A stretch of 64,000 nucleotides of DNA from Candidatus Liptonbacteria bacterium (GCA_023244895.1 JAHFLL010000001.1:745802-809801); one strand, 5' to 3'. Counted from the first letter of the stretch, positions 22,486 to 38,722 are shown. The notes: generated from the letters alone by a model not told the origin. Numbers and translations: made by a program.

Positions 22486-24384
22486 ATGTTAGAAAGAAGA
22501 AATAAAAATTCCGGACCGCGCAGTCACCCCTCCCAAACTAGAGTTTGGGTGCCCGCGAAGGAAGAAAGAGTTCGGTCGGAATCCGAAATGGGCGGAGTAA
22601 ATACTCCCCTCAAATCAAAGTTTAACCCTCGGGGTGGCTCCGGCGTGAGAAACGAGCAGCACGCTTCGGCTAAATACGGCAAGAGAACAAGGCCGTCTCC
22701 TATGAGACGCGAGAACAAAGAAGATACTCTGCGCTTTGTGCCTCTGGGCGGATTGGAAGAAGTGGGACGAAATATGATGTTCTACGAGTATCGCGACGAA
22801 ATCGTTATTCTGGACGCAGGCCTACAATTCCCGGAGGAAGAAACGCCGGGGATAGACTACATCATTCCAAACGTGGCCTATCTGGCGGAACGCAAGGCGA
22901 ATATCCAAGCGATAATACTCACTCACGCTCACTACGATCACATTGGTGCTATACCGCACATTATGGAGAAGCTGGGCAATCCCCCGATTTACACCACCTC
23001 CTTGACGCGCGCCATCGTGGAAAAGCGCCAAACGGATTTTCCGAACAGCCCCAAGCTCAACATCATCACCATTAAAGATAAGGATAAAATTAAATTATCC
23101 AACTATTTTGAGGTGGAGTTTTTCGGGGTACCGCATACTGTGCCGGAAACAACCGGAGTGGTACTAAAAACACCGGTTGGCAAAGCGGTTCACTTCGCGG
23201 ACTTCCGTATTGATTACGACGAACATGGCGTGGCTTATGGACTGGAGGAATTCGCGCGCATCGGACAGATGGGCATAGACATATTTACAATCGACAGCAC
23301 CGCCGCGGAAAGAGAAGGCTATACTATTTCCGAAAAAATAGTAGAGAAAAATTTGGAAGAAATATTCCGGCGGGCAAAGGGCAGAATAATCGTAGCAACC
23401 TTCTCTTCGCTCCTGTCGCGCGTCGCGGAAATAATAAAGATAGCGGACAAGATTGGGCGTAAGGTTGCCCTGGCGGGCTACTCCATGAAGGCCAACGTAC
23501 AGATCGCCCAGAACCTGGGATTTATCAAAACCAAGCCTGGTGAAATTATCCCCATAGAGGAGGTGAGTAAGTATCATGACGATAAATTGCTCATCCTTTC
23601 CGCGGGAGCGCAAGGCGAAGCCAATGGCTCGCTGGCTAGAATCGTAAATGGCACTCATCGCAATCTGAAAATAAAACGGGGCGACTCGGTGGTTCTTTCC
23701 TCTTCCGTCATTCCCGGCAACGAGCGCAGCGTGCAGGTCGTAAAGGACAACCTCACCCGCCAGGGCGCGCACGTGTATCAATCCCTCCATATTGATATTC
23801 ATTCCAGCGGTCATGCCCCCAAAGAAGACCTGAAGCTGGTCATGCAACTTATTAAACCCAAGTATCTAATCCCGGTGCATGGTTATTACTTCATGCGGGC
23901 GGCGAACGCCCAATCCGCGGAAGACGTCGGTATCCCAGCCCAAAACGCCATCTTGATGGACAACGGCCAGGTTGGCGAACTTACCAAAGAAGGATTCCGA
24001 GTTACAGATGAAACCGTGCCGGCCTTCTACGTGATGGTAGATGGCTTGGGAGTGGGTGATGTGGAAGAGGTAGTTTTGCGCGATAGGCGCAGTTTGGCCC
24101 AAGAAGGCATGGTTGTATTGATTGTGGTAATTGACCGGGAGCATGGCGGTAAGATACTTAAGAATCCCGACATAATCTCCCGAGGCTTCATCTATATGAA
24201 GGAAAATCAGGAGGTTATGGAAGATATCCGCAAAAAGATAAAGAGCCTAATCGCCCGGCTCCCCTCTGATAAGCCGGTAGAGAGCGAATTCTTAAAGACT
24301 TTGTTGCGCGATCAGGTCGGTCAGTTCTTGTATAACAAGACTCGCCGCCGGCCCATGGTTATTCCGGTAGTAATAGAAATCTAA
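22486..24384 (+). CDS. rnj: Ribonuclease J (beta-CASP metallo-beta-lactamase) with a basic N-terminal extension of about 72 aa
   Basis: It has the MBL HxHxDH motif (ILTHAHYDHIGAIP) and the beta-CASP and C-terminal domains. The canonical RNase J N-terminus starts near Met 22702 (MRRENKEDTLRFVPLGGLEEVG), so the upstream 216 nt may or may not be translated. Confidence 0.8.
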   Translation: MLERRNKNSGPRSHPSQTRVWVPAKEERVRSESEMGGVNTPLKSKFNPRGGSGVRNEQHASAKYGKRTRPSPMRRENKEDTLRFVPLGGLEEVGRNMMFYEYRDEIVILDAGLQFPEEETPGIDYIIPNVAYLAERKANIQAIILTHAHYDHIGAIPHIMEKLGNPPIYTTSLTRAIVEKRQTDFPNSPKLNIITIKDKDKIKLSNYFEVEFFGVPHTVPETTGVVLKTPVGKAVHFADFRIDYDEHGVAYGLEEFARIGQMGIDIFTIDSTAAEREGYTISEKIVEKNLEEIFRRAKGRIIVATFSSLLSRVAEIIKIADKIGRKVALAGYSMKANVQIAQNLGFIKTKPGEIIPIEEVSKYHDDKLLILSAGAQGEANGSLARIVNGTHRNLKIKRGDSVVLSSSVIPGNERSVQVVKDNLTRQGAHVYQSLHIDIHSSGHAPKEDLKLVMQLIKPKYLIPVHGYYFMRAANAQSAEDVGIPAQNAILMDNGQVGELTKEGFRVTDETVPAFYVMVDGLGVGDVEEVVLRDRRSLAQEGMVVLIVVIDREHGGKILKNPDIISRGFIYMKENQEVMEDIRKKIKSLIARLPSDKPVESEFLKTLLRDQVGQFLYNKTRRRPMVIPVVIEI

Positions 24385-24403
24385 ACAAGGCGGTTGGCGG
24401 ACT

Positions 24404-24432
24404 TCAAAAACTGGATTTATATCCAGTTTTTG
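24404..24432. terminator. Bidirectional rho-independent terminator after rnj
   Basis: There is a hairpin AAAAACTGGAT-TTAT-ATCCAGTTTTT. Confidence 0.55.
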
Positions 24433-24447
24433 AATTAGAATGGAGTA

Positions 24448-25434
24448 ATGACTAAGCCAATCTTGGTTTCCGGAATACAACCCAGCGGCCGGTTACACAT
24501 CGGCAATTACCTGGGCGCGCTTAAAAACTTCGTGGAGCTTCAGAATTCCGGCAAATACCAGTGCTATTTTTTCATTGCGGACCTGCATTCTCTCACCGAG
24601 AGCTACACCCCCGAAGAAAAGCATAAACAGATACTGGAGCTTACCGCGGACTTTGTGGCGGCAGGGCTGGATCCCAAAAAATCGGTCATCTTCCTGCAAT
24701 CCCAAATTCCCGCCCATAGCGAGTTGGCGTGGATTTTAAGCACTATTACACCTACCGGAGAATTGCGCCGCATGACTCAATACAAGGATAAGAGTGATAA
24801 CGAAAAAGACTCGGCGAATACCGGGCTACTCACCTACCCCATTTTAATGGCCGCGGATATTATTCTTTATGACGCTAAATTTGTGCCGGTGGGTGAAGAC
24901 CAGGTCCAACATTTGGAATTGACCCGCACCCTGGCGCGTAAGTTTAATTCCCGTTTCGGAGAAATATTTATTGAACCACAACCAATTCTGACCGAGACTC
25001 CCCGCATAATGAGCCTGAAGAATCCGGAGAAGAAAATGTCCAAGTCCGACCCAAGTAGCTGTGTTTTCTTGGATGACTCTCCGGAAGATATTCGTGCCAA
25101 GTTTAAATCCGCGACAACCGACTCCGGCAATGAGATAAAGTTTGATAAAGCCAAACCCGGCATAAGCAATCTCCTTAAAATCTTCTCTGCCGTCTCAGGT
25201 GAATCTATAAAAGAATCCGAGAAAATGTTCGCTGGTTCTACTTATTCCAACTTTAAGGGCGCGGTTGCGGAATCCATCGTTGCCCACTTCACCGATTTTA
25301 GAAAGCGCAAATCCACCCTCTTGGCCAGACCCAAAACCCTAACGAACCTCCTAAGCTCCGGCTCCAAGAAAGCGTCTTTACGAGCTAATCGTAAGATAAA
25401 GGAGATAAAAAATAGGGTAGGATTGACTGTTTAG
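24448..25434 (+). CDS. trpS: Tryptophanyl-tRNA synthetase
   Basis: The class I motifs are present: GIQPSGRLHIGNYLGA (HIGH-type) and KMSKS. Confidence 0.9.
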   Translation: MTKPILVSGIQPSGRLHIGNYLGALKNFVELQNSGKYQCYFFIADLHSLTESYTPEEKHKQILELTADFVAAGLDPKKSVIFLQSQIPAHSELAWILSTITPTGELRRMTQYKDKSDNEKDSANTGLLTYPILMAADIILYDAKFVPVGEDQVQHLELTRTLARKFNSRFGEIFIEPQPILTETPRIMSLKNPEKKMSKSDPSSCVFLDDSPEDIRAKFKSATTDSGNEIKFDKAKPGISNLLKIFSAVSGESIKESEKMFAGSTYSNFKGAVAESIVAHFTDFRKRKSTLLARPKTLTNLLSSGSKKASLRANRKIKEIKNRVGLTV

Positions 25435-25527: not shown

Positions 25528-26295
25528 TTGCTGAGGCGAAAAATCGGGAACGTGGCAGGCGTGGGTATCATCTACCGGGCAATCGACCCGGGAAAGATAT
25601 TCACCGAGGTCAAAGATGACGGCCTGCCAGCCGTTGTGTTCCGGCGGGGACTGTGCACGCCGGGCGGCAACTGGATCGGCGAGGCGGCGCGAGCGGATAC
25701 CAATCCGCTCGCCACCTACCGACGCGAGATCGGCGAAGAGTTGTCGCTCGAGAGAGCGGCCGCCTCCACGCTGGAATCGCGACTGTTGGGCATGGAACCC
25801 GACGGCAATTTCTACTTGGTGCCTCGGGCGAACGTCAAGCCCACCCCTGGCCAGATCTCGGCTCTCGCGGACATCAAGAGGGTCATCATCGAGGGGGCAA
25901 CACCATTCGTGGACCTGCTCAACACCACCCCACGGGCGGTGCTGGATCGCGCGGACGCCAACAACAAGAAGGGCGACATCATCGCTGTGGTGTCCTACTT
26001 CGCGACTGCATTGCGGGAACCGGAATGGCACGAGCTAGCCGCCCTGCAAGCGGCCTTCGGCAACTTGTCCAACGAGAGCATCACACTCGTCACCTCGCTG
26101 GACGAGATTATCACCAATGGCATGCGCTGGGCCTATGGCCACGAACACGCCATGCGCCGCTTTTTCCTGGCCTTCGGGCTCGAGGCAGCGAAGGACATGC
26201 TTGAGACGGAAGACGTCACGAGTGAATGCCTCGGGACGCCCCGGGCGTCGTACGACGACTACCTGGTTGAGTTTGACATCGAGCGCCGTCCATAG
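25528..26295 (+). CDS. Hypothetical Nudix-like protein with an expanded Nudix box (GC-rich island B)
   Basis: It has a beta-grasp-like N-terminus and a box PGGNWIGE-x13-RREIGEELSL (Nudix-like, but with 13 rather than 7 residues between the E and the RE). It lies in an island of about 65 % GC and is followed by a GC-rich terminator hairpin. Confidence 0.35.
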   Translation: MLRRKIGNVAGVGIIYRAIDPGKIFTEVKDDGLPAVVFRRGLCTPGGNWIGEAARADTNPLATYRREIGEELSLERAAASTLESRLLGMEPDGNFYLVPRANVKPTPGQISALADIKRVIIEGATPFVDLLNTTPRAVLDRADANNKKGDIIAVVSYFATALREPEWHELAALQAAFGNLSNESITLVTSLDEIITNGMRWAYGHEHAMRRFFLAFGLEAAKDMLETEDVTSECLGTPRASYDDYLVEFDIERRP

Positions 26296-26322
26296 AACAA
26301 GGCGGACGGCGCAGTAGCACAA

Positions 26323-28044: not shown

Positions 28045-31000
28045 TTAAGCCTTGGATAAAGACAATCTTATTTCTTTTCCATCTAAAGTTATCTTTTCTC
28101 CCGCATCTCCCTCCGTTATGTCGGAAATATAAGTCTTCTCGCGGTTAAATGCTTGCACGGCTTTGTTAAGATCTGCATCTCCCGTTTTATATGTCAGCTT
28201 GGCCATTTCTCCCACTTTCATACCGCCCTGTTTGCGCAATTCTTGTATGGCTCGCTCTAAACCCCTCACCAATCCCTCTAGGCGCAATTCATCGCTGATA
28301 GTCGCGTCTAAAACAACTTCCTCTTTTTGATCGGGATCTATCTTAATGTTCTTCACATTTAACTCCTCGCAAAGTATCTTCAATAATCCTTCCTGACCCT
28401 TTAATTCTTTATTCCTAATTCCTAATTCCTGGAGCGGTTGGCGCACCGGAATGTTTAATTCCTTGCGCTTTGCCATGCCCATACTCGCGGCTTCTCGCAC
28501 CACCTTCATTTGGCTAAGCAATTCTTTCTCCTCCTGGGATAATTCTTTCTTAATTGGCCAATCTACCAGATGCACCGATTCATAAGCAGTGGGGGTTGGT
28601 CCGGAAGTTTGAATGGTAAGCCCTTCGTAGTCGGCCGCAGTGAGGCTCTTATAAATTAATTCTGATAGATACGGCATGACTGGGGCTGATGCTTTCGCGA
28701 GATTGATAAGGGCATGACGCAGTGTGCCGAAAAAGTACGCATCCGCCCGGCCCCGACTGCGACGCAAATACCAAGTAGAAAGATCGTCTATATATTCCGC
28801 AATGAAGCGGGTCGCGCGCACGGTATCGTATGCATCCAAACTGTCCGTCACGCCATTTACCAGTTCTTTAGTGCGAGCCCAAATCCATTTATCCAGAACA
28901 TTGGATAACTGTTCTATGTTTAATGTCCCATGTTTTGTGTCCTTCGGCGCGTAGGTCAAAAAATAATTCAACACATTCCAAGGAATGAGCACCATCTTGC
29001 GATACAGGTCGCCCAATTCCCGCTCGCTAAAGTTCAAATTGTCCGCCTGCATTACGCTAGAGTTCATTAGATAGAAACGCAAGGCGTCTACGCCATACTT
29101 CTCTATCACCACCCATGGGTCCGGATAGTTCTTCTTGGACTTGCTCATCTTGGAACCATCCTCAGCTAGAATCGTTCCGGTTGTGACCACGTTCTCAAAA
29201 GGCGCCTTGCCGAAGAGTTCTATGGATAAAACATGCATCACATAAAACCAGGCGCGAGTCTGGGCGATATACTCCGCCACAAACTGACCAGGGAAACGAG
29301 CTTCAAAAACTTCTTTCTGGTCAAAAGGATAATGGAATTCCGCGAAAGGCATAGAGCCCGCCTCTACCCAGGAATCAAATATCTCCGGTACGCGCTTGGC
29401 ATTCTTGCCGCACTTGTCGCATTTAAGAATAATCTGATCAATGTGCGGGCGGTGCAGGTCTGTGATGCTAACGTCCAGCGAGAAGACCTTAGCGAACCTT
29501 GGCACAGGAGGTAGCTCCGACCCATAATATTGCATAAGCACATACAACGGGTCGCCGTGCGAAACAATCAGTATTTTCTTGCCGGAATATTCGCGGTTCT
29601 TTTCGTTAATAAAATCGACCATGCGCTCCCGAACACTGGTTCGCGTCTCCCCGCCCTCCGGACACCTAGTCCACCGCTCCGAACCTGGAAAGTCCCTCTC
29701 AAACTCAGCGTACGTTTTGCCGTTGTAATCCCCGACTCCAAGCTCTCGTAAGCGCTCATCAAATTCAAGCGGAACGCCCAGCGCGGCCGCCAGGGTTTCG
29801 GCGGTTTGTTTGGTACGCGTTATGTCTGACGCGAAAATCATATCTACCCCACCCATTTCCCCTAGGTGTCCCGCCAGATCTTTTACGCGCTTCACGCCCT
29901 CCTTGGTTAGATTATATTTTTCCGGTTCTGGCCAGCAGTTATTCAATCCTAAAACATTATTTTCTCCTTCTCCGTGCCGGGTAAATAAAAATGTATTTTT
30001 TTCTAATCCCAGCTCCTTAATACTGCCAACTACTTTATTTTCTCCACAAGACTCACACTTCCAAACCGGGATGGGGTTGCCCCAGTAGCGATTGCGGGAA
30101 ATGTTCCAATCCGGCGCCTGCTCCACGCTCTTTTCATATCGGCCATGCTTCAAGTGCCCCGGATACCAGTTAATCTCCTTCTTGTTAGACTCAACCAACT
30201 TGCCCTTTATTTTCTGGATATTGATAAACCAGGCCGGAATAGCGTTATAGAAAAGCTTATTGCCGCATCTCCAGCAGTGCGGATAGGAGTGAGGGTAGTC
30301 CTGTTTAGAGAATAGCAATCCATCCTTCTCCAGCTCTTCCACGACCATCTTGTTGGCCTTCTCAAAATACTGTCCCCTTAAAAATCCGGGAGCCTTCTCG
30401 TTAAAATGACCCTTACCGTCCAAGAGCGGGACAACCGGCAGTCCGTACTTCAGTCCCAAATCATAGTCGTCTTCTCCGTAAACGACGGCAGTGTGCACTA
30501 TGCCGGTTCCGTCTTCGGTGGTAACGAAATCCGCCGGATAAACCTGGAAGGTCTTGTCGGTCTGCACGGCTGGGACATCAAACAATGCCTCATACTTCAG
30601 ACCAATCAGGCTCTTGCCGGGAATGTCTGATCTCTCTACCTCCGGCTGACTCGGAAAAACTTTGCTGACTAGATCCTTCGCTAGAACATATCTATTTCCT
30701 TCCAGCGTCGCGACGACGTATTCAACATTCTCCCCTACCGCCAAGGCGACGTTCCCCGGCAGAGTCCAGGGTGTAGTTGTCCAGGCTAACAGGTATGTAT
30801 TTTCCGGTACGGACCAGCCACCTATCTTTTGACCCGGCACAACTTTAAATTTCGCCGTGAGAGAGGTGTCGGTTACATCTTTATAGGAATTATCCATCGC
30901 CACTTCAAAGTTTGAGACTGGTGTCTCGCAGCGCGGACAATACATCAAAACTTTACGTCCTTCATAAACCAAGCCCTTTTCATAAAACTGCTTGAATCCC

Positions 31001-31500
31001 CACCAGACCGATTCCATATAGTCTCGGTCCATGGTCTTGTAGGAATTATCAAACTCGGTCCAGCGCGCTATGCGGCGGACCATCTTTTTCCACTCGCCGG
31101 CATATTCCAAAACTTTTTCCTTGCAGGTAGCGTTAAATTTTTCTATGCCCAACTCCTCAATCTGCTTTTTGCCGGAGATGCCCAAATGGCGCTCCACAAT
31201 CTCCTCAATCGGCAAGCCGTGGCAATCCCAACCCCAACGGCGACGCACATAGCGCCCCTTCATAGTCTGATAGCGAGGAATCAGGTCTTTTATAGTAGAG
31301 GCCAGAATGTGGCCATAGTGAGGCAGACCGGTTGCGAAAGGCGGACCATCATAAAAGGTGTACGCCTCCCCATCCTTGGTCTTTCCCAAGGTTTTCTCAA
31401 AAATCTTATTCTCTTCCCAAAATTTCAGAATTTTCTCCTCAATGACCGGAAGATTAAACCCTTCCTCTAAGAATTTGCCGCTATTATCTTCTGAGCTCAT
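28045..31500 (-). CDS. ileS: Isoleucyl-tRNA synthetase (type 2) with an embedded histidine-phosphatase (PGM-like) domain of about 200 aa
   Basis: It has the HIGH motif PFATGLPHYGH, the editing-domain motif WTTTPWTLPGN, and KMSKS. The insert (aa 495-700) sits between the two CxxC pairs of the Zn knuckle and carries RHGEGENN, SDITRTKQTAE, DERLRELGVGDYNGKTYAEFE, PEGGETRTSVRER and VSHGDPL, which are the full set of histidine-phosphatase branch-1 motifs. Confidence 0.85.
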   Translation of the reverse strand: MSSEDNSGKFLEEGFNLPVIEEKILKFWEENKIFEKTLGKTKDGEAYTFYDGPPFATGLPHYGHILASTIKDLIPRYQTMKGRYVRRRWGWDCHGLPIEEIVERHLGISGKKQIEELGIEKFNATCKEKVLEYAGEWKKMVRRIARWTEFDNSYKTMDRDYMESVWWGFKQFYEKGLVYEGRKVLMYCPRCETPVSNFEVAMDNSYKDVTDTSLTAKFKVVPGQKIGGWSVPENTYLLAWTTTPWTLPGNVALAVGENVEYVVATLEGNRYVLAKDLVSKVFPSQPEVERSDIPGKSLIGLKYEALFDVPAVQTDKTFQVYPADFVTTEDGTGIVHTAVVYGEDDYDLGLKYGLPVVPLLDGKGHFNEKAPGFLRGQYFEKANKMVVEELEKDGLLFSKQDYPHSYPHCWRCGNKLFYNAIPAWFINIQKIKGKLVESNKKEINWYPGHLKHGRYEKSVEQAPDWNISRNRYWGNPIPVWKCESCGENKVVGSIKELGLEKNTFLFTRHGEGENNVLGLNNCWPEPEKYNLTKEGVKRVKDLAGHLGEMGGVDMIFASDITRTKQTAETLAAALGVPLEFDERLRELGVGDYNGKTYAEFERDFPGSERWTRCPEGGETRTSVRERMVDFINEKNREYSGKKILIVSHGDPLYVLMQYYGSELPPVPRFAKVFSLDVSITDLHRPHIDQIILKCDKCGKNAKRVPEIFDSWVEAGSMPFAEFHYPFDQKEVFEARFPGQFVAEYIAQTRAWFYVMHVLSIELFGKAPFENVVTTGTILAEDGSKMSKSKKNYPDPWVVIEKYGVDALRFYLMNSSVMQADNLNFSERELGDLYRKMVLIPWNVLNYFLTYAPKDTKHGTLNIEQLSNVLDKWIWARTKELVNGVTDSLDAYDTVRATRFIAEYIDDLSTWYLRRSRGRADAYFFGTLRHALINLAKASAPVMPYLSELIYKSLTAADYEGLTIQTSGPTPTAYESVHLVDWPIKKELSQEEKELLSQMKVVREAASMGMAKRKELNIPVRQPLQELGIRNKELKGQEGLLKILCEELNVKNIKIDPDQKEEVVLDATISDELRLEGLVRGLERAIQELRKQGGMKVGEMAKLTYKTGDADLNKAVQAFNREKTYISDITEGDAGEKITLDGKEIRLSLSKA

Positions 31501-31628: not shown

Positions 31629-32072
31629 ATGACCGAAGAAATAAAAATCCCGCGGGTGGCGATTAATGTTTTGGTAATTAAAGACGGCAAGGCTCTGATG
31701 GGAAAAAAGAATAATCCCAGCAAGGTAGGATGTGGCACCTGGTGCTTTCCGGGAGGAAAGTTGGATTTTGGGGAATATTTAGCGGAAGGAGCTAAACGGG
31801 AACTACTAGAAGAAACCGGCCTAAAGGCAAGAACACTAAAGCTCTCCAATATTATTGACGAACCCCAAGCTTCCGGCGGGGCTCATTATCTGCATATAAA
31901 TTTCCTTGCGACAGACTGGGAAGGAGAACCAACCGTGATGGAGCCGGATAGATTTGAGAAGTGGGAGTGGTTTGATTTAGACAAACTACCAGCAGAAACA
32001 TTCCCCAGTCACCAGAGATTTATCCCGGCGTATTTACGGAAAGAGGTTCTAGATGACGGCACTAATCGATAG
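31629..32072 (+). CDS. Nudix hydrolase (MutT-like)
   Basis: It has the canonical Nudix box GGKLDFGEYLAEGAKRELLEETGL. Confidence 0.65.
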   Translation: MTEEIKIPRVAINVLVIKDGKALMGKKNNPSKVGCGTWCFPGGKLDFGEYLAEGAKRELLEETGLKARTLKLSNIIDEPQASGGAHYLHINFLATDWEGEPTVMEPDRFEKWEWFDLDKLPAETFPSHQRFIPAYLRKEVLDDGTNR

Positions 32073-32189: not shown

Positions 32190-33899
32190 CTAGATTCTCT
32201 CCGGCGCTTTTATACCCAAAATTCTTAATCCGCTCTTTAGGGTTTGCGCGGTAGCATCAATAAGCTTCAGGCGCGCGACGCGCAGATTAGAGTCTTCTTC
32301 CTTCATAACCGGGCAGGCTTCATAAAAACTATTAGTAGTGTTGGCTAATCCATAGAGATAGGAGCAGAGCAGATTGGGCGCGGTATTCTCTAGCGCCGCA
32401 AGCAGAGCATAGGGGTATTCGGCAATGGCGCGTATTAGAGCCAGCTCTTTTTCGTCTTTTAGGAGATGCAACTGGCGTCTGGGCCAATAGTAGTCAACTC
32501 GCCTAGCCTTACGTTTTATGCTTTGAAGCCTGGCATAGGTGTACTGTAAATACGGTCCGCTATCTCCCGAGAAATCCAACATCTTTTGCCAATCGAAAAT
32601 TATATCCGAGTTGCGATTCTCTTTAAGGTTGGTGTATTTGAGCGCGCCGATTGCCACCGCTTGGGCCACATCCTCCTTCTCTTGTCGGGAAAGACCGGGG
32701 TTTTTGTCCTGCACTATCCCCCGCGCGAGGCCCAATGCCTTCTGTAAAACCTCTTCACCGGAAACCACATTGCCCTCCCGAGTAGATAGCTTTTTGCCAG
32801 ACTCCCCCAAGACCATGCCATATTTGACATGCAACAATTCCACGCCCTGGCCCAAGCCCAACAGGTCAAAAACCGCGAAAACTTGGGAGAGGTGCAGGCT
32901 TTGCTCATTACCCACTACATAAAGAATTTTGGCGGGTTTGTATTCTTTCAAACGGTATTCCAGGTTGGCTAGGTCGCGCGTGAGATACAAGCTTCCTCCA
33001 TCCGATTTGCGCACCAGGGCCACCGGCAGATTAAACTTATCCAACGGAATAATGAGCCCGCCTTCGCTTTCCTTGGTAAGACCTTTTTCGGTTAATTCGG
33101 AAATGACCCGCTCCAATTCCTTTTCAAAAAAGTTCTCGCCTATGTCTATGTCAAAATCTATGCCCAAAGTTTTGTAGACGCGATTGAATTCACGCATAGA
33201 CTCCTTCTTGAACCAACCCCAGAGCTTGCGATTTTCTTTATCCCCCTGCTCCAGCTTACGAAATTCCGCGCGAGCTTCATCTTCCAGAGACTCATTATTC
33301 TTCGCCTCGTCATGAAAACGGATATAGAGCGCCGTTAGGGTCGGAATTGGATCCTTCTCTACCGCCGCCTCGTCGCCCCATTTACGATAAGCCACTATCA
33401 ATTTGCCGAATTGAGTGCCCCAGTCCCCCAAATAGTTCCAGCGCACCACCTTATAACCAGTCGCCTGATAAATATTGGCCAAAGAATCGCCCGTAAAGGC
33501 ATTGCGTAAATGTCCCACGTGGATGGGCTTCGCGATATTCAAAGAAGAGTGTTCCACTATCACTGTTTTATTCTGACCGATATTCCAAACCCCATATTTA
33601 TTACCCTGACCCAAAATATCGTCCAGGCTCCCGTGCCAGGCGGAGGGAGTTAGCCAAAAATTTATGAAGCCGGGCGGGGCGACCTCTACTTTTTCAAAAA
33701 AGTCCGCGGGGGCGGAAGACTTAATCCGCTCCGCGAAATCGTTCGCGATATCAAGCGGGTTCTGATGGATAAGCTTGGCATGGCGCATCGCCAAATTAGT
33801 GGAATAGTGCCCCTGCTCCACGTGGTCCGAGACCATAATATCAAAACCCGCCTCGGAACCGACGGCGCGTTCTATTATCTCTTTCAACTTGGCTCTCAT
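32190..33899 (-). CDS. argS: Arginyl-tRNA synthetase
   Basis: It is 569 aa with the HVGHLRN (HIGH-type) motif and an anticodon-binding DALR C-terminus. Confidence 0.9.
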   Translation of the reverse strand: MRAKLKEIIERAVGSEAGFDIMVSDHVEQGHYSTNLAMRHAKLIHQNPLDIANDFAERIKSSAPADFFEKVEVAPPGFINFWLTPSAWHGSLDDILGQGNKYGVWNIGQNKTVIVEHSSLNIAKPIHVGHLRNAFTGDSLANIYQATGYKVVRWNYLGDWGTQFGKLIVAYRKWGDEAAVEKDPIPTLTALYIRFHDEAKNNESLEDEARAEFRKLEQGDKENRKLWGWFKKESMREFNRVYKTLGIDFDIDIGENFFEKELERVISELTEKGLTKESEGGLIIPLDKFNLPVALVRKSDGGSLYLTRDLANLEYRLKEYKPAKILYVVGNEQSLHLSQVFAVFDLLGLGQGVELLHVKYGMVLGESGKKLSTREGNVVSGEEVLQKALGLARGIVQDKNPGLSRQEKEDVAQAVAIGALKYTNLKENRNSDIIFDWQKMLDFSGDSGPYLQYTYARLQSIKRKARRVDYYWPRRQLHLLKDEKELALIRAIAEYPYALLAALENTAPNLLCSYLYGLANTTNSFYEACPVMKEEDSNLRVARLKLIDATAQTLKSGLRILGIKAPERI

Positions 33900-33992: not shown

Positions 33993-34454
33993 ATGGCAGA
34001 AGCCAAGCAACACAAGAATATTGCCGAGAACCGCCGGGCGCGGTTTGACTATGAAATCTCCGACACATACGAGGCTGGCTTAGAGCTCTCCGGTATGGAG
34101 GCCAAAAGCGCGCGACTGGGCGGAATGAACCTTTCTGGTAGCCACGCACTCGTCAAGAAAGGAGAGGTTTGGCTCTTAAATTCCCAAATAATGCCCTTCC
34201 AACCCAAAAATGCCGGGAGTGATTACGAGCCAACCCGTTTCCGCCGTTTGCTACTGCACGGCGCGGAAATAGCTATTTTAGCCAACCGCCTGCAAGAAAA
34301 AGGTTGGTCGCTGGTGCCCCTGCGGGCATATCTCAAAAAAAATCTAGTGAAAGTGGAGCTCGGCCTGGGCAGGAGCAAAAAAGCCCACGATAAACGGGAT
34401 ACCATAAAGAAGAGAGACGTAAAACGGGAAATAGATCGCTCCCGAGCGCGCTAA
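33993..34454 (+). CDS. smpB: SsrA-binding protein
   Basis: It has the motif IAENRRARFDYEISDTYEAGLELSGMEAKS, and both its length and basic C-terminal tail are typical of SmpB. Confidence 0.85.
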   Translation: MAEAKQHKNIAENRRARFDYEISDTYEAGLELSGMEAKSARLGGMNLSGSHALVKKGEVWLLNSQIMPFQPKNAGSDYEPTRFRRLLLHGAEIAILANRLQEKGWSLVPLRAYLKKNLVKVELGLGRSKKAHDKRDTIKKRDVKREIDRSRAR

Positions 34455-38389: not shown

Positions 38390-38399
38390 ACGAGTCGAG

Positions 38400-38722
38400 T
38401 GGAGATGGGCGGAGTCGAACCGCCGTGTAAGACAGAAACCGATGAATCATCTACGAGTGTAGTTCGCTAAAGCGGACAAACACTCCACATTCTTTCGCGC
38501 CATATGCGGTGGAGCACGTATATATGGCCCTAGCCTCCTTGTATAAGACCGGTATCAAGCTAAGAGGCCCAGCCTGGCCGATCCTCCAGACGCTACGCGT
38601 TAAACGTAGGCGAAAGCTGGAGCTGCAACTTTATTGTTGGCAGTTAAGATTTTTGCCAGATTTACGAGGTGGCACTCGACTCGCCGATTCAAGGTACTGA
38701 CTTATCGAAGCCGGTCATCCCC
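38400..38722 (-). ncRNA. ssrA: tmRNA (SsrA), about 323 nt without CCA
   Basis: On the minus strand the 5' end reads GGGGATGACCGGCTTCGATAAG and the 3' end reads GGCGGTTCGACTCCGCCCATCTCCA. The T-arm is GGCGG-TTCGACT-CCGCC. The acceptor stem GGGGATG/CATCTCC contains the G3-U70 alanine identity pair. The candidate in-frame tag is GCC-AAC-AAT-AAA-GTT-GCA-GCT-CCA-GCT-TTC-GCC-TAC-GTT-TAA (ANNKVAAPAFAYV*), which is tentative. smpB lies 4 kb away. Confidence 0.75.

What the first reader, a model, noticed from the sequence alone, without database searches (positions are those of the whole stretch)
29400..30060. Complete histidine-phosphatase (PGM/SixA-like) domain inserted into the Zn-knuckle loop of isoleucyl-tRNA synthetase
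The IleRS ORF is 1151 aa; typical type-2 enzymes are about 1050 aa. Between the two CxxC pairs (CESC ... CDKC) that normally enclose a short Zn-knuckle loop just upstream of the DSW/KMSKS region lies an insert of about 200 aa. The insert carries the full histidine-phosphatase branch-1 motif set: RHGEGENN, SDITRTKQTAE, DERLRELGVGDYNGKTYAEFE, GGETRTSVRER and VSHG. I checked the RHG codons directly in the DNA (ttt tta ttt acc cgg cac gga gaa gga gaa on the minus strand at about 29955-29985). I do not know of any aaRS described with an embedded phosphomutase/phosphatase module. It could act on a tRNA 3'/2',3'-cyclic phosphate, on Ap4A-type by-products, or on a phosphorylated regulator.
Basis: partly seen in the sequence, partly recalled or inferred. 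Interest (0 to 1): 0.88.

Follow-up and report, generated by a model that had tools for sequence, protein, structure and literature searches.

The report
Phosphatase domain nested inside isoleucyl-tRNA synthetase
The isoleucyl-tRNA synthetase of this candidate-phyla-radiation bacterium has a complete, apparently active histidine-phosphatase enzyme built into one of its surface zinc-finger loops; the design is shared by hundreds of related uncultured bacteria, no paper I could search describes it, and what the phosphatase acts on is unknown.

Summary
ORF 28045-31500 (-) encodes an 1151-aa type-2 IleRS that passes the ileS equivalog cutoff. Residues ~499-682 are a His_Phos_1 domain (E=1.3e-31) nested at the tip of the CP3 zinc hairpin (C482/C485...C694/C697). 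It replaces ~11 residues of T. thermophilus IleRS. The AF2 model is confident and its closest structure is PhoE.

It is not an assembly artefact. 119 of the 120 closest IleRS relatives, all named ones Patescibacteria, carry the domain at the same point, and R508, H509, R562, E586 and H648 are invariant.

New findings:
1. In relatives with insert-less IleRS, the closest free-standing homolog (~190 aa) lies directly between argS and ileS in 8 of 9 contexts. This is a split/fused (Rosetta-stone) pair.
2. Some IleRSs carry 2 to at least 4 tandem copies at CP3, or a second copy in an anticodon-binding-domain loop. All complete copies keep the catalytic residues.
3. Some Liptonbacteria have lost the insert.

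Best reading: an autonomous, active PhoE-like phosphomonoesterase captured from the operon neighbour and selectively kept tethered to IleRS. The substrate is unknown. A tRNA-end or translation-linked phosphoester is plausible but untested. Nine literature searches found no description, although the sequences are already in public databases. It is a new variant of a known kind.

The parts
28045..31500 (-). Whole IleRS-with-phosphatase ORF (1151 aa plus stop)
   Evidence: ORF. (tRNA-synt_1, His_Phos_1, Anticodon_1, DUF5915). (TIGR00392 ileS, 803.5 bits against a cutoff of 621.4).
30007..31500 (-). IleRS N-terminal part, aa 1-498: Rossmann first half with HYGH (aa 61-64, window 31309-31320), CP core Zn knuckle CPRC188/CWRC409, CP1 editing domain, CP2, and the first half of CP3
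   Evidence: aligns to 1ILE residues 9-477; the editing domain matches 1WK8 at E=2.4e-32.
30046..30057 (-). First CP3 zinc-knuckle Cys pair, C482-E-S-C485
   Evidence: C482 is invariant in 121 of 121 sequences.
29455..30006 (-). Nested histidine-phosphatase (PhoE/CobC-like) domain, aa 499-682
   Evidence: PF00300, E=1.3e-31. (AF2 pLDDT 87; PhoE 1H2E TM 0.69/0.74). (pLDDT 91-97 in the full-length model). (same insertion point in all embedded forms).
29971..29979 (-). RHG motif: R508, nucleophile H509, G510
   Evidence: R and H present in 120 of 120 insert-bearing orthologs.
29815..29817 (-). R562, second phosphate-binding Arg (SDITRTK motif)
   Evidence: 120 of 120..
29743..29745 (-). E586, predicted proton donor (RLRE motif)
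   Evidence: E in 114, D in 6..
29557..29559 (-). H648, second catalytic His (VSHGD)
   Evidence: 120 of 120..
29410..29421 (-). Second CP3 zinc-knuckle Cys pair, C694-D-K-C697
   Evidence: both Cys in 121 of 121 sequences.
28048..29454 (-). IleRS C-terminal part, aa 683-1151: DLHRP...DSWVE, Rossmann second half, KMSKS (29137-29151), anticodon-binding domain, and the type-2 C-terminal DUF5915 domain
   Evidence: aligns to 1ILE residues 489-817.
32190..33899 (-). ArgRS gene. It is the conserved upstream neighbour. In relatives the free-standing phosphatase gene lies between it and ileS.
   Evidence: Pfam. (synteny).
31629..32072 (+). NUDIX hydrolase gene on the opposite strand, in the argS-ileS gap where relatives carry the phosphatase gene. 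It is context only and is not conserved at this position.
   Evidence: (no homolog in the other loci).
33993..34454 (+). SmpB gene, part of the conserved SmpB|argS-ileS neighbourhood

Best explanation
This is the housekeeping type-2 isoleucyl-tRNA synthetase of a Patescibacteria (CPR) bacterium. It has become a two-enzyme protein. A complete PhoE/CobC-like histidine phosphatase of about 184 aa is nested at the tip of the CP3 zinc-finger hairpin of the catalytic domain and is joined to it by two short linkers. The synthetase body is otherwise intact.

Shown: the domain folds autonomously, it keeps every catalytic residue (R508, H509, R562, E586, H648), and it sits at the same insertion point across IleRS cores that have diverged to about 40% identity.

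Shown: its closest free-standing relatives are ~190-aa CPR proteins encoded directly between argS and ileS, often with overlapping or nearly abutting genes, in genomes whose IleRS lacks the insert.

Inferred: the domain was captured once from this operon neighbour. It was then repeatedly amplified within IleRS, as tandem copies at CP3 and as a second site in the anticodon-binding-domain loop, and it was occasionally lost.

Inferred mechanism: each copy works as an independent phosphomonoesterase through a phospho-His509 intermediate. What selection maintains is its physical tethering and stoichiometric co-expression with IleRS. Its substrate is therefore probably tied to tRNA charging or translation and is not an arbitrary metabolite. 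The substrate itself is not identified. My split is roughly 0.55 for a function coupled to IleRS, tRNA or translation (within that, about 0.2-0.25 for a tRNA 3'-end phosphate or pyrophosphate), 0.3 for an uncoupled housekeeping phosphatase, and the rest for other roles.
For: Domain identity and fold. Clean nesting in CP3: 1ILE 477-489 replaced; 30-residue loop in the insert-less relative P0125; identical junctions 'VGSxxEL | DLHRPYID'. CP3 nomenclature: PMC7191050 and PMC10810186. Catalytic residues are invariant in 120 of 120 orthologs although the insert averages only 46% identity, and they are kept in every complete copy of the multi-copy proteins. Lineage-wide occurrence: 119 of the top 120 IleRS relatives, GTDB-representative MAGs L005-L013, and 799 family clusters at E<=1e-30 of which about 83 of the top 150 are IleRS-embedded. 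Split/fused pattern: the free-standing homolog lies between argS and ileS in 8 of 9 contexts. Recurrence within IleRS only: tandem x2 to at least x4 at CP3, plus a second site in four clusters. One of those clusters has 6 members on 6 contigs up to 1.06 Mb. No other host protein was found. Copies are 22-36% identical to each other, so they are ancient and independently maintained. The IleRS is functional by sequence: the ileS equivalog cutoff is passed and HYGH, KMSKS and the editing domain are present. Insert GC and GC3 equal the rest of the gene.
Against: There is no biochemical evidence for activity or substrate. Gene adjacency alone could explain why IleRS was the recipient, because the source DNA lay next door, so recurrence is not proof of functional coupling. 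The insert has been lost in some Liptonbacteria, which have no phosphatase gene in the local neighbourhood, so IleRS does not need it. The second site is in a different part of the protein, which argues against a precise geometric relation to the aminoacylation site. The best-studied analogous fusion, mycobacterial RNase HI-CobC, was concluded to be functionally dissociated and fixed by drift (PMC7466739). Tree support for a single capture is weak: the embedded clade has bootstrap 13/100 and the deep host-tree topology is unresolved. The full-length AF2 model gives no usable inter-domain geometry.
Confidence: 0.6

Rival explanations
1. Hitch-hiking fusion with no functional link. The phosphatase is an ordinary housekeeping, broad-specificity phosphomonoesterase (nucleotide or sugar-phosphate 'housecleaning'). 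It was next to ileS, landed in a permissive surface loop and was fixed by drift. Its catalytic residues are conserved only because the cell still needs the phosphatase.
For: The closest characterised relatives are broad-specificity or metabolite phosphatases: PhoE, GpgP, PspA and CobC. CP3 is a peripheral module with variable topology and no assigned function. The insert is dispensable in some lineages. The second site is elsewhere on the protein. There is a precedent in the RNase HI-CobC fusion, which was judged functionally dissociated. Operons in reduced genomes often mix functions.
Against: An in-frame insertion into an essential enzyme's catalytic domain has been retained across IleRS divergence to ~40% identity. 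There is also a second independent in-frame insertion site and tandem amplification, always in IleRS and in no other host. The free-standing gene keeps its position between argS and ileS in 8 of 9 contexts, even when mobile elements are inserted on either side of it.
Confidence: 0.3
2. Built-in tRNA-end or translation repair. The phosphatase removes a 2'/3'-phosphate, a 2',3'-cyclic-phosphate product or a pyrophosphate-derived phosphate from the tRNA CCA end (for example after nuclease or toxSAS/CapRel-type attack), or it dephosphorylates a phospho-inhibited synthetase. Chargeable substrate or enzyme is thereby restored right at the synthetase.
For: The Rosetta-stone link to two aaRS genes sits inside a translation-gene neighbourhood that includes SmpB, IF3-L35-L20 and UMP-kinase-like genes. 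The base of CP3 borders the active site (PMC12077802). The best NCBIfam partial match is to the phosphatase module of a nucleic-acid enzyme fusion. Multiple tethered active copies would raise local activity on a bound macromolecule.
Against: No member of this superfamily is established as a tRNA 3'-phosphatase (my own knowledge). It is not clear why only IleRS would carry a general tRNA-repair activity. The second site in the anticodon-binding-domain loop is far from the acceptor end. Insert charge simply tracks host and genome composition, so there is no signal of an RNA-binding surface. No geometry is available.
Confidence: 0.22
3. The insert is a cofactor-dependent phosphoglycerate mutase (or SixA-type phosphohistidine phosphatase) that supplies a glycolytic or signalling function, as the reader's 'PGM/SixA-like' label suggests.
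For: It belongs to the same superfamily. It has a partial match to the short archaeal dPGM model NF038349 (78 bits) and to dPGM structures by fold.
Against: All dPGM equivalog scores are far below cutoff: 78 against 225, 47 against 261, and 25.6 against 81.7. SixA scores 24.7 against 74.5. The sequence after the proton-donor Glu is PhoE-like ('RELGVGDYNGKT', compare PhoE 'REIHLGDWEGKT'), not the dPGM 'ERHYG' type (my own knowledge). The domain is ~184 aa and lacks the dPGM C-terminal tail. The best structural matches are phosphatases with lower rmsd (2.8-3.8 A) than the mutases (5-8 A).
Confidence: 0.05
4. Artefact: a mis-assembly, a chimeric contig or a gene-calling error has fused two genes.
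For: None was found. The adjacent free-standing gene in relatives could in principle suggest a chimera.
Against: The reading frame is continuous with IleRS motifs on both sides. The junctions are identical in more than 100 independent sequences from NCBI, JGI, ENA and Logan assemblies. The exact protein is on a public 840,672-bp contig. GC and GC3 are homogeneous across the gene. The domain is internal, not an end-to-end fusion.
Confidence: 0.01

Closest known systems
PhoE (YhfR) broad-specificity phosphatase of Geobacillus stearothermophilus, and the PhoE/CobC/GpgP/PspA group of short histidine phosphatases (PDB 1H2E/1EBB, 4PZ9, 4IJ5, 6E4B)
   Same: Same fold and catalytic apparatus: RHG His nucleophile, two Arg, a Glu proton donor and a second His. 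The size is also similar, at ~190 aa. PhoE is the top hit by sequence (E=3e-12) and by structure (Foldseek E=5e-15, TM 0.69/0.74, rmsd 2.8 A).
   Different: Only 25-29% identity. No NCBIfam equivalog cutoff is reached. Here the domain is nested inside another enzyme, not free-standing. The substrate is unknown.
CAAD domain insertions in cyanobacterial class I aaRSs (ValRS, IleRS, LeuRS, GluRS, ArgRS, MetRS, CysRS): Olmedo-Verd et al. 2011; Santamaria-Gomez et al. 2016 (PMC4893482)
   Same: A lineage-restricted internal insertion into class I synthetases of a domain homologous to a free-standing protein. Capture is recurrent, including two alternative insertion points in one synthetase (ValRS). 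The host is the only copy of the synthetase and remains active.
   Different: [quoted passage not shown] Here the insert is a catalytic phosphatase, the main site is CP3 within the catalytic domain, it was found only in IleRS, and the donor gene is the immediate operon neighbour.
Mycobacterial RnhC (MSMEG_4305 / Rv2228c): RNase HI fused to a CobC-type acid phosphatase
   Same: A PhoE/CobC-like histidine phosphatase covalently joined to a nucleic-acid enzyme. It is the best partial NCBIfam match of the insert (PRK07238, 86 bits). The biological reason for that fusion is also unclear.
   Different: It is an end-to-end C-terminal fusion, not a nested insertion. It is restricted to Actinomycetales. 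The domains were reported to be functionally dissociated in vivo, with a role in B12 synthesis (PMC7466739).
Canonical type-2 ('eukaryote-like') IleRS, e.g. T. thermophilus IleRS (1ILE/1JZQ), with a Zn-binding CP3
   Same: Full-length homology (E=6e-207). It has the same CP core and CP3 Cys knuckles, HIGH/KMSKS motifs and editing domain, and the same type of C-terminal region without the bacterial type-1 zinc-binding domain.
   Different: In T. thermophilus the CP3 hairpin tip is ~11 residues. Here ~182 residues forming a second enzyme occupy that position.
NCBIfam NF040702 'ileS_w_GNAT' (IleRS containing an N-acetyltransferase domain)
   Same: It is a precedent, in a curated annotation library, for an IleRS that carries an extra enzymatic domain.
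   Different: It has a different added domain and belongs to a different IleRS type. The query scores 285 bits against a cutoff of 1999, so it is not a member. I did not examine where the GNAT domain sits.

Membership tests
Histidine phosphatase superfamily, branch 1 (Pfam PF00300 His_Phos_1) | Scores above the Pfam gathering threshold | tested here: met
   110.3 bits against a cutoff of 21.7, E=1.3e-31, aa 505-660.
Histidine phosphatase superfamily, branch 1 (Pfam PF00300 His_Phos_1) | RHG motif with the nucleophilic His, plus a second Arg, an acidic proton donor and a second His | tested here: met
   R508, H509, R562, E586 and H648 are present. They are invariant (E586 as E or D) in 120 of 120 orthologs and in all complete copies of the multi-copy proteins.
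Histidine phosphatase superfamily, branch 1 (Pfam PF00300 His_Phos_1) | Alpha/beta fold of the dPGM/PhoE type | tested here: met
   AF2 pLDDT is 87 overall and >93 across the core. The Foldseek top hit is PhoE 1H2E at E=5e-15, and 302 PDB hits have E<=1e-3, with the 50 listed all belonging to this superfamily.
Histidine phosphatase superfamily, branch 1 (Pfam PF00300 His_Phos_1) | Phosphomonoesterase or mutase activity through a phospho-histidine intermediate | not testable with these tools
   This needs an enzyme assay of the domain and of an H509A mutant.
Cofactor-dependent phosphoglycerate mutase (dPGM) | Reaches an NCBIfam dPGM equivalog or subfamily cutoff | tested here: not met
   NF038349 77.9 against 225; PRK03482 46.9 against 261; TIGR01258 25.6 against 81.7.
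SixA phosphohistidine phosphatase | Reaches the TIGR00249 cutoff | tested here: not met
   24.7 bits against 74.5, matching only a ~50-residue stretch.
Alpha-ribazole phosphatase CobC | Reaches the TIGR03162 or PRK15004 cutoff | tested here: not met
   77.0 against 162.9, and 50.4 against 250.
Isoleucine--tRNA ligase (TIGR00392 ileS) | Scores above the equivalog cutoff despite the insert | tested here: met
   803.5 bits against 621.4, in two stretches flanking the insert.
Isoleucine--tRNA ligase (TIGR00392 ileS) | Class I signature motifs HIGH and KMSKS, and the CP1 editing domain | tested here: met
   HYGH at aa 61-64 and KMSKS at aa 784-788. KMSKS is conserved in all 121 sequences, with M785 replaced by L in 5. 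The editing domain matches 1WK8 at E=2.4e-32.
Isoleucine--tRNA ligase (TIGR00392 ileS) | It is the sole (housekeeping) IleRS of the genome and it charges tRNA-Ile | not testable with these tools
   There is no second IleRS in the 64-kb window. Activity needs an assay.
Type-2 (eukaryote/archaeal-like) IleRS | C-terminal region of the DUF5915 type, not the bacterial type-1 Zn-binding domain; closest to T. thermophilus and eukaryotic IleRS | tested here: met
   PF19302 DUF5915 covers aa 983-1126. The best PDB matches are 1ILE and yeast, Candida and human IleRS at E~1e-200, against type-1 S. aureus 1FFY at E=2e-84.
Mupirocin-resistance IleRS MupA/MupB | Reaches the NCBIfam exception-model cutoff | tested here: not met
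   641-655 bits against 1900.
CAAD-containing aaRS (cyanobacterial) | The insert is homologous to CURT1/CAAD and has two transmembrane helices | tested here: not met
   The insert is a soluble His_Phos_1 domain and no CAAD family appears in the Pfam scan. This family is an analogue only.

The most novel reading that the evidence does not exclude
The nested phosphatase is a new kind of aaRS-associated quality-control or repair activity. It would act on a phosphorylated form of the synthetase's own macromolecular substrate or of the synthetase itself, for example by removing a 2'/3'-phosphate (or the residue of a pyrophosphorylated or cyclic-phosphate end) from the tRNA CCA terminus, or by reversing an inhibitory phosphorylation, so that charging can go ahead. 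Tandem and second-site copies would then be an arms-race-style amplification of that protection in CPR bacteria.
Probability: 0.2. Interest if true: 0.9.

Novelty: new variant of a known kind. Interest (0 to 1): 0.66.

Why it matters
Aminoacyl-tRNA synthetases are known to pick up extra domains, but these are mostly RNA-binding, editing, localisation or interaction modules. Here a catalytically intact phosphatase is nested inside the catalytic domain of an essential synthetase. It is conserved across a large part of the Candidate Phyla Radiation, amplified to as many as four or more copies, and matched in sister lineages by a separate gene wedged between argS and ileS. That implies an unrecognised phosphoester-hydrolysing step that these minimal-genome bacteria keep physically and genetically tied to tRNA charging.

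The question is directly testable, because the domain can be expressed, mutated at H509, or deleted back to the natural 30-residue loop seen in Liptonbacteria. If the substrate turns out to be tRNA- or synthetase-linked, this would be a new class of aaRS-associated repair or proofreading. If it is not, it is a clean natural example of how operon neighbours become nested domains in reduced genomes, and a caution for Rosetta-stone inference.

It also has a practical consequence for annotation. NCBI's pipeline currently names the listed relatives only 'class I tRNA ligase family protein'.

Tried and rejected
1. Mis-assembly or chimera. Rejected, because the junctions are identical in more than 100 independent sequences and the exact protein lies on a public 840-kb contig.
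2. Split IleRS genes. Five clusters start at the same internal position 'MSDLRDKL'. Rejected: the IleRS frame continues upstream to the contig edge, so these are truncated gene calls at a conserved internal Met. The 'HP-D-E-F' proteins start at variable points inside the CP3 knuckle and are also truncations.
3. Charge or pI as a sign of RNA binding. Free-standing domains have median pI 9.5 and embedded domains 6.2. The control shows that insert charge tracks the charge of the host IleRS/ArgRS and genome GC, so the result is inconclusive.
4. NUDIX gene as a conserved partner. The NUDIX gene between argS and ileS in the window has no homolog in the other loci.
5. Recent horizontal acquisition of the insert. 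GC and GC3 are the same as in the rest of the gene.
6. Inter-domain geometry from a full-length AF2 model. The phosphatase is confident but parts of the Rossmann core fall below pLDDT 50 with this shallow alignment, and no coordinates are returned, so the distance from H509 to the aminoacylation site could not be measured.
7. Taxonomic census by genome scan.
9. Direction of evolution. NJ trees place all embedded domains in one clade nested among free-standing ones, but with bootstrap 13/100. The deep host IleRS topology is unresolved. A single capture therefore rests mainly on the identical insertion point.
10. Literature. Nine full-text searches found no description of an IleRS or any other aaRS with a histidine-phosphatase domain. 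Subscription-only papers were not searched.
Full report

Yes. The window has a single 1151-aa ORF at 28045..31500 on the minus strand. Pfam finds tRNA-synt_1 on both sides of a His_Phos_1 (PF00300) match at aa 505-660, with E=1.3e-31 and 110 bits against a cutoff of 21.7. It also finds Anticodon_1 and the type-2 C-terminal DUF5915 domain.

- CESC at aa 482-485 (window 30057-30046)
- RHGEG at aa 508-512 (29979-29965)
- SDITRTK at aa 558
- VSHGD at aa 646
- CDKC at aa 694-697 (29421-29410)
- DSWVE at aa 709
- KMSKS at aa 784

The protein still passes NCBI's ileS equivalog model, with 803.5 bits against a cutoff of 621.4.

Against T. thermophilus IleRS (1ILE), residues 16-498 align to 9-477 and residues 681-1013 align to 489-817. 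About 182 residues here therefore replace about 11 residues at the tip of a hairpin held by two Cys pairs. An insert-less close relative (P0125) has 30 residues between the knuckles, compared with 208 here.

The literature calls this element the CP3 subdomain, or CP3 'cysteine-rich zinc finger'. It is Zn-binding in T. thermophilus, its topology varies between IleRSs, it is normally 25-77 aa, and no function is listed for it (PMC7191050; PMC10810186 Table 1).

**2. Is the insert a real, autonomous and probably active phosphatase?**

An AF2 model of the insert has mean pLDDT 87 and >93 through the core. Its best structural match in the PDB is the broad-specificity phosphatase PhoE (1H2E, E=5e-15, TM 0.69/0.74, rmsd 2.8 A). 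This is followed by glucosyl-3-phosphoglycerate phosphatase, PspA phosphoserine phosphatase and CobC. dPGMs match with much higher rmsd. Sequence searches agree.

In the full-length model the phosphatase is the most confident region, with pLDDT 91-97.

No NCBIfam equivalog cutoff is reached, whether for dPGM, SixA, CobC, PspA or the RNase H/acid-phosphatase family. The domain is therefore an unnamed PhoE/CobC-like subfamily and not a PGM or SixA.

Across 120 insert-bearing orthologs the insert averages only 46% identity to the query, against 74-80% for the Rossmann halves. Even so, R508, H509, R562 and H648 are invariant and E586 is always E or D. That pattern is the signature of purifying selection on catalysis.

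**3. Is it an artefact or a one-off?**

Neither. Of the 120 best IleRS matches (53-91% identity, 905-1239 aa), 119 carry PF00300. The source names are Doudnabacteria, Liptonbacteria, Jorgensenbacteria, Saccharibacteria, Minisyncoccia and 'Patescibacteria group'.

Species-representative MAGs give the same picture. They include IleRS cores only 40-46% identical to the query (L008-L013).

The insertion point is identical everywhere, at '...VGSxxEL | domain | DLHRPYID...'. There are two length classes, about 207 and about 230-245 residues between the knuckles.

The window's exact protein is in NCBI, ENA and Logan on an 840,672-bp contig. One ortholog is UniRef100_A0A1F5Q552, named 'Isoleucine--tRNA ligase'. 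NCBI names the listed relatives 'class I tRNA ligase family protein'. Insert GC and GC3 equal those of the rest of the gene.

**4. Where did the domain come from?**

The closest non-IleRS relatives of the insert are ~190-aa free-standing CPR proteins at 35-45% identity. They share the 'CWPEKFxNPLTKKG' signature.

Their genomic context is striking. In 8 of 9 cases examined, the gene lies on the same strand directly between argS and an insert-less ileS of 890-982 aa. The gaps are a few bases, or the genes overlap by 4 bp. The one exception, P0013, is a distant member.

Where mobile elements have entered the cluster, the phosphatase gene stays with one synthetase or the other:
- A DGR cassette separates it from ileS in L004.
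- A toxin-antitoxin pair plus an HD-domain gene separates it from ileS in L026.
- An HTH gene separates it from argS in L027.

The window has the same SmpB | argS ... ileS neighbourhood, but here the phosphatase is inside ileS. A third state also exists: Liptonbacteria loci L003/P0125 and L014 have argS-ileS with neither insert nor adjacent gene.

In an NJ tree of the IleRS body, those insert-less sequences nest inside the short-insert clade with bootstrap 91/100, which implies secondary loss. In a domain-only NJ tree, all embedded domains form one clade nested in a grade of free-standing proteins, and the argS-adjacent genes are their sister. Support for this is weak, at 13/100.

Together with the identical junctions, I infer a single ancient capture of the operon neighbour. 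I have not proven it.

**5. Recurrent amplification within IleRS**

A profile of the family finds 799 clusters (at 50% identity) with E<=1e-30 in 1.84 billion representatives. I mapped the architecture of the best 150:
- 60 are free-standing single domains.
- 7 are HP-HP proteins of about 400 aa.
- About 83 are IleRS or IleRS fragments with the domain at CP3.

Among the IleRS-embedded group, some carry two tandem copies at CP3 (P0144, P0154, P0165, P0190, P0209, P0184), and one fragment carries at least four (P0143). Four clusters (P0149, P0168, P0188, P0204) carry a second copy at a different site. That site is the loop between the first two helices of the anticodon-binding domain, after '...TYAxxD' and before 'LDxW...'.

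The P0168 cluster has six members on six contigs of up to 1.06 Mb, so the two-site architecture is real. Every complete copy retains R-H-R-E-H. Copies within one protein are only 22-36% identical, so they are old and independently maintained.

No host other than IleRS appeared in the 150 mapped architectures, in the ten hosts checked by Pfam, or in the top 120 of a second profile search, which were all free-standing proteins.

**6. How it most likely works**

Shown: this is a synthetase with all its own motifs plus one (elsewhere several) intact PhoE-like catalytic module on a surface hairpin.

Inferred from the superfamily's chemistry: each module hydrolyses a phosphomonoester through a phospho-His509 intermediate. 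R508, R562 and H648 would bind the phosphate, and E586 would act as the proton donor.

Inferred from genomics: the split/fused pattern, the fixed operon position, retention across deep divergence, a second independent in-frame site, and tandem amplification always in IleRS all point the same way. Selection appears to favour keeping this phosphatase physically or stoichiometrically tied to IleRS. The substrate is therefore more likely connected to tRNA charging or translation than arbitrary.

My probabilities are about 0.55 for coupled, 0.3 for uncoupled and 0.15 for other.

Within 'coupled', the most interesting option is repair of phosphorylated tRNA 3' ends or reversal of an inhibitory phosphorylation, at about 0.2. 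I found no direct support for it. Insert charge simply follows host composition. The second site is far from the acceptor end. The model gives no geometry.

The strongest counter-argument is opportunity. The donor gene lay next to ileS, CP3 is a permissive and variable loop, and some lineages lost the insert. In addition, the best-studied analogous fusion, mycobacterial RNase HI-CobC, was judged functionally dissociated (PMC7466739).

**7. Comparison with what is known**

By family, the host is a type-2 IleRS and the insert is a branch-1 histidine phosphatase of the PhoE/CobC type. Both memberships were tested and met. Membership of dPGM, SixA, CobC and MupA/B was tested and not met (see the membership table).

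By design, the nearest precedent is the CAAD domain of cyanobacterial class I aaRSs. It too is derived from a free-standing gene, inserted internally, recurrent, and found at two sites in ValRS (PMC4893482). CAAD, however, is a non-catalytic membrane anchor, it occurs in seven different aaRSs, and it lies outside the catalytic domain.

NCBIfam also holds an 'IleRS with GNAT domain' model, so IleRS with an added enzyme domain is not unprecedented.

Nine full-text searches found no paper describing an aaRS with a histidine-phosphatase domain. Subscription-only literature was not searchable.

**8. Verdict**

It is a new variant of a known kind, namely lineage-specific domain insertion into a class I aaRS, and it is unusual in that the insert is an intact enzyme. 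The function is unknown but directly testable. Interest is 0.66: surprising to an aaRS specialist and experimentally tractable, but tempered by a credible neutral explanation and by the sequences already being public.

Noticed in passing
window 25528-26295 (+), within the GC-rich patch around 26000-26300: A 255-aa ORF lies in a locally GC-rich stretch (GC 0.61 against 0.485 for the window). It has no Pfam or Rfam match, but it contains a Nudix-box-like motif ('GGNWIGE...REIGEELSL'). It may be a divergent Nudix-type protein or a horizontally acquired gene.
   Followed up: partly
window 31629-32072 (+): A NUDIX hydrolase gene on the opposite strand fills the argS-ileS gap, exactly where related genomes carry the free-standing phosphatase gene. 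It has no homolog in the other loci fetched.
   Followed up: partly
window 38397-38722 (-) and 33993-34454 (+): A tmRNA gene (Rfam, 122 bits) lies about 4 kb from its partner gene smpB. smpB is divergently adjacent to argS, and this arrangement is conserved in many of the related loci.
   Followed up: no
window 22486-25434 (+): RNase J and a class Ib synthetase (TrpRS/TyrRS family) lie just beyond ileS. The same two genes lie near ileS in the Liptonbacteria locus L003, so synteny extends beyond the argS-ileS pair.
   Followed up: no
L001/L002 4255-5586; L004 7840-8853: Cassettes that look like diversity-generating retroelements (bAvd plus a reverse transcriptase in L001/L002; a reverse transcriptase in L004) lie next to the argS-HP-ileS cluster. 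In L004 the cassette sits between the phosphatase gene and ileS.
   Followed up: no
L026 5152-6319: An RHH antitoxin, a ParE/YafQ-type toxin and an HD_3 domain gene are inserted between the free-standing phosphatase gene and ileS.
   Followed up: no
L023 1-151; L024 1-31 (proteins P0005, P0163, P0193, P0232, P0278): Five protein clusters start at the same internal IleRS position ('MSDLRDKL'). For the two contigs examined (L023, L024), these are truncated gene calls at a conserved Met on short contigs. L023 also has an in-frame TGA inside the IleRS frame near the contig start and a premature TAG after the insert, which could mean an alternative genetic code, a pseudogene or sequencing error.
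   Followed up: partly
proteins P0057 and P0091, first CP3 knuckle (aligned to query aa 482-485): Two Liptonbacteria IleRSs have extra residues (about 12) within or next to the first Cys pair of CP3. P0028 appears to lack the second Cys of that pair. The Zn site itself therefore varies within the clade.
   Followed up: no
L015 (Tepidiformaceae), L017 (Dehalococcoidia), L016 (Woesearchaeota): In the NJ tree, insert-less IleRSs from Chloroflexi and a DPANN archaeon intermingle with CPR IleRSs. This hints at horizontal transfer of type-2 IleRS among these groups, but the deep topology was not supported.
   Followed up: no
proteins P0174, P0238, P0239, P0242, P0261, P0264, P0274: These proteins of about 360-420 aa consist of two tandem phosphatase domains with intact catalytic residues. 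They could be free-standing double-domain proteins (JGI names one of them PhoE) or fragments of tandem-insert IleRSs. Their contexts were not examined.
   Followed up: no
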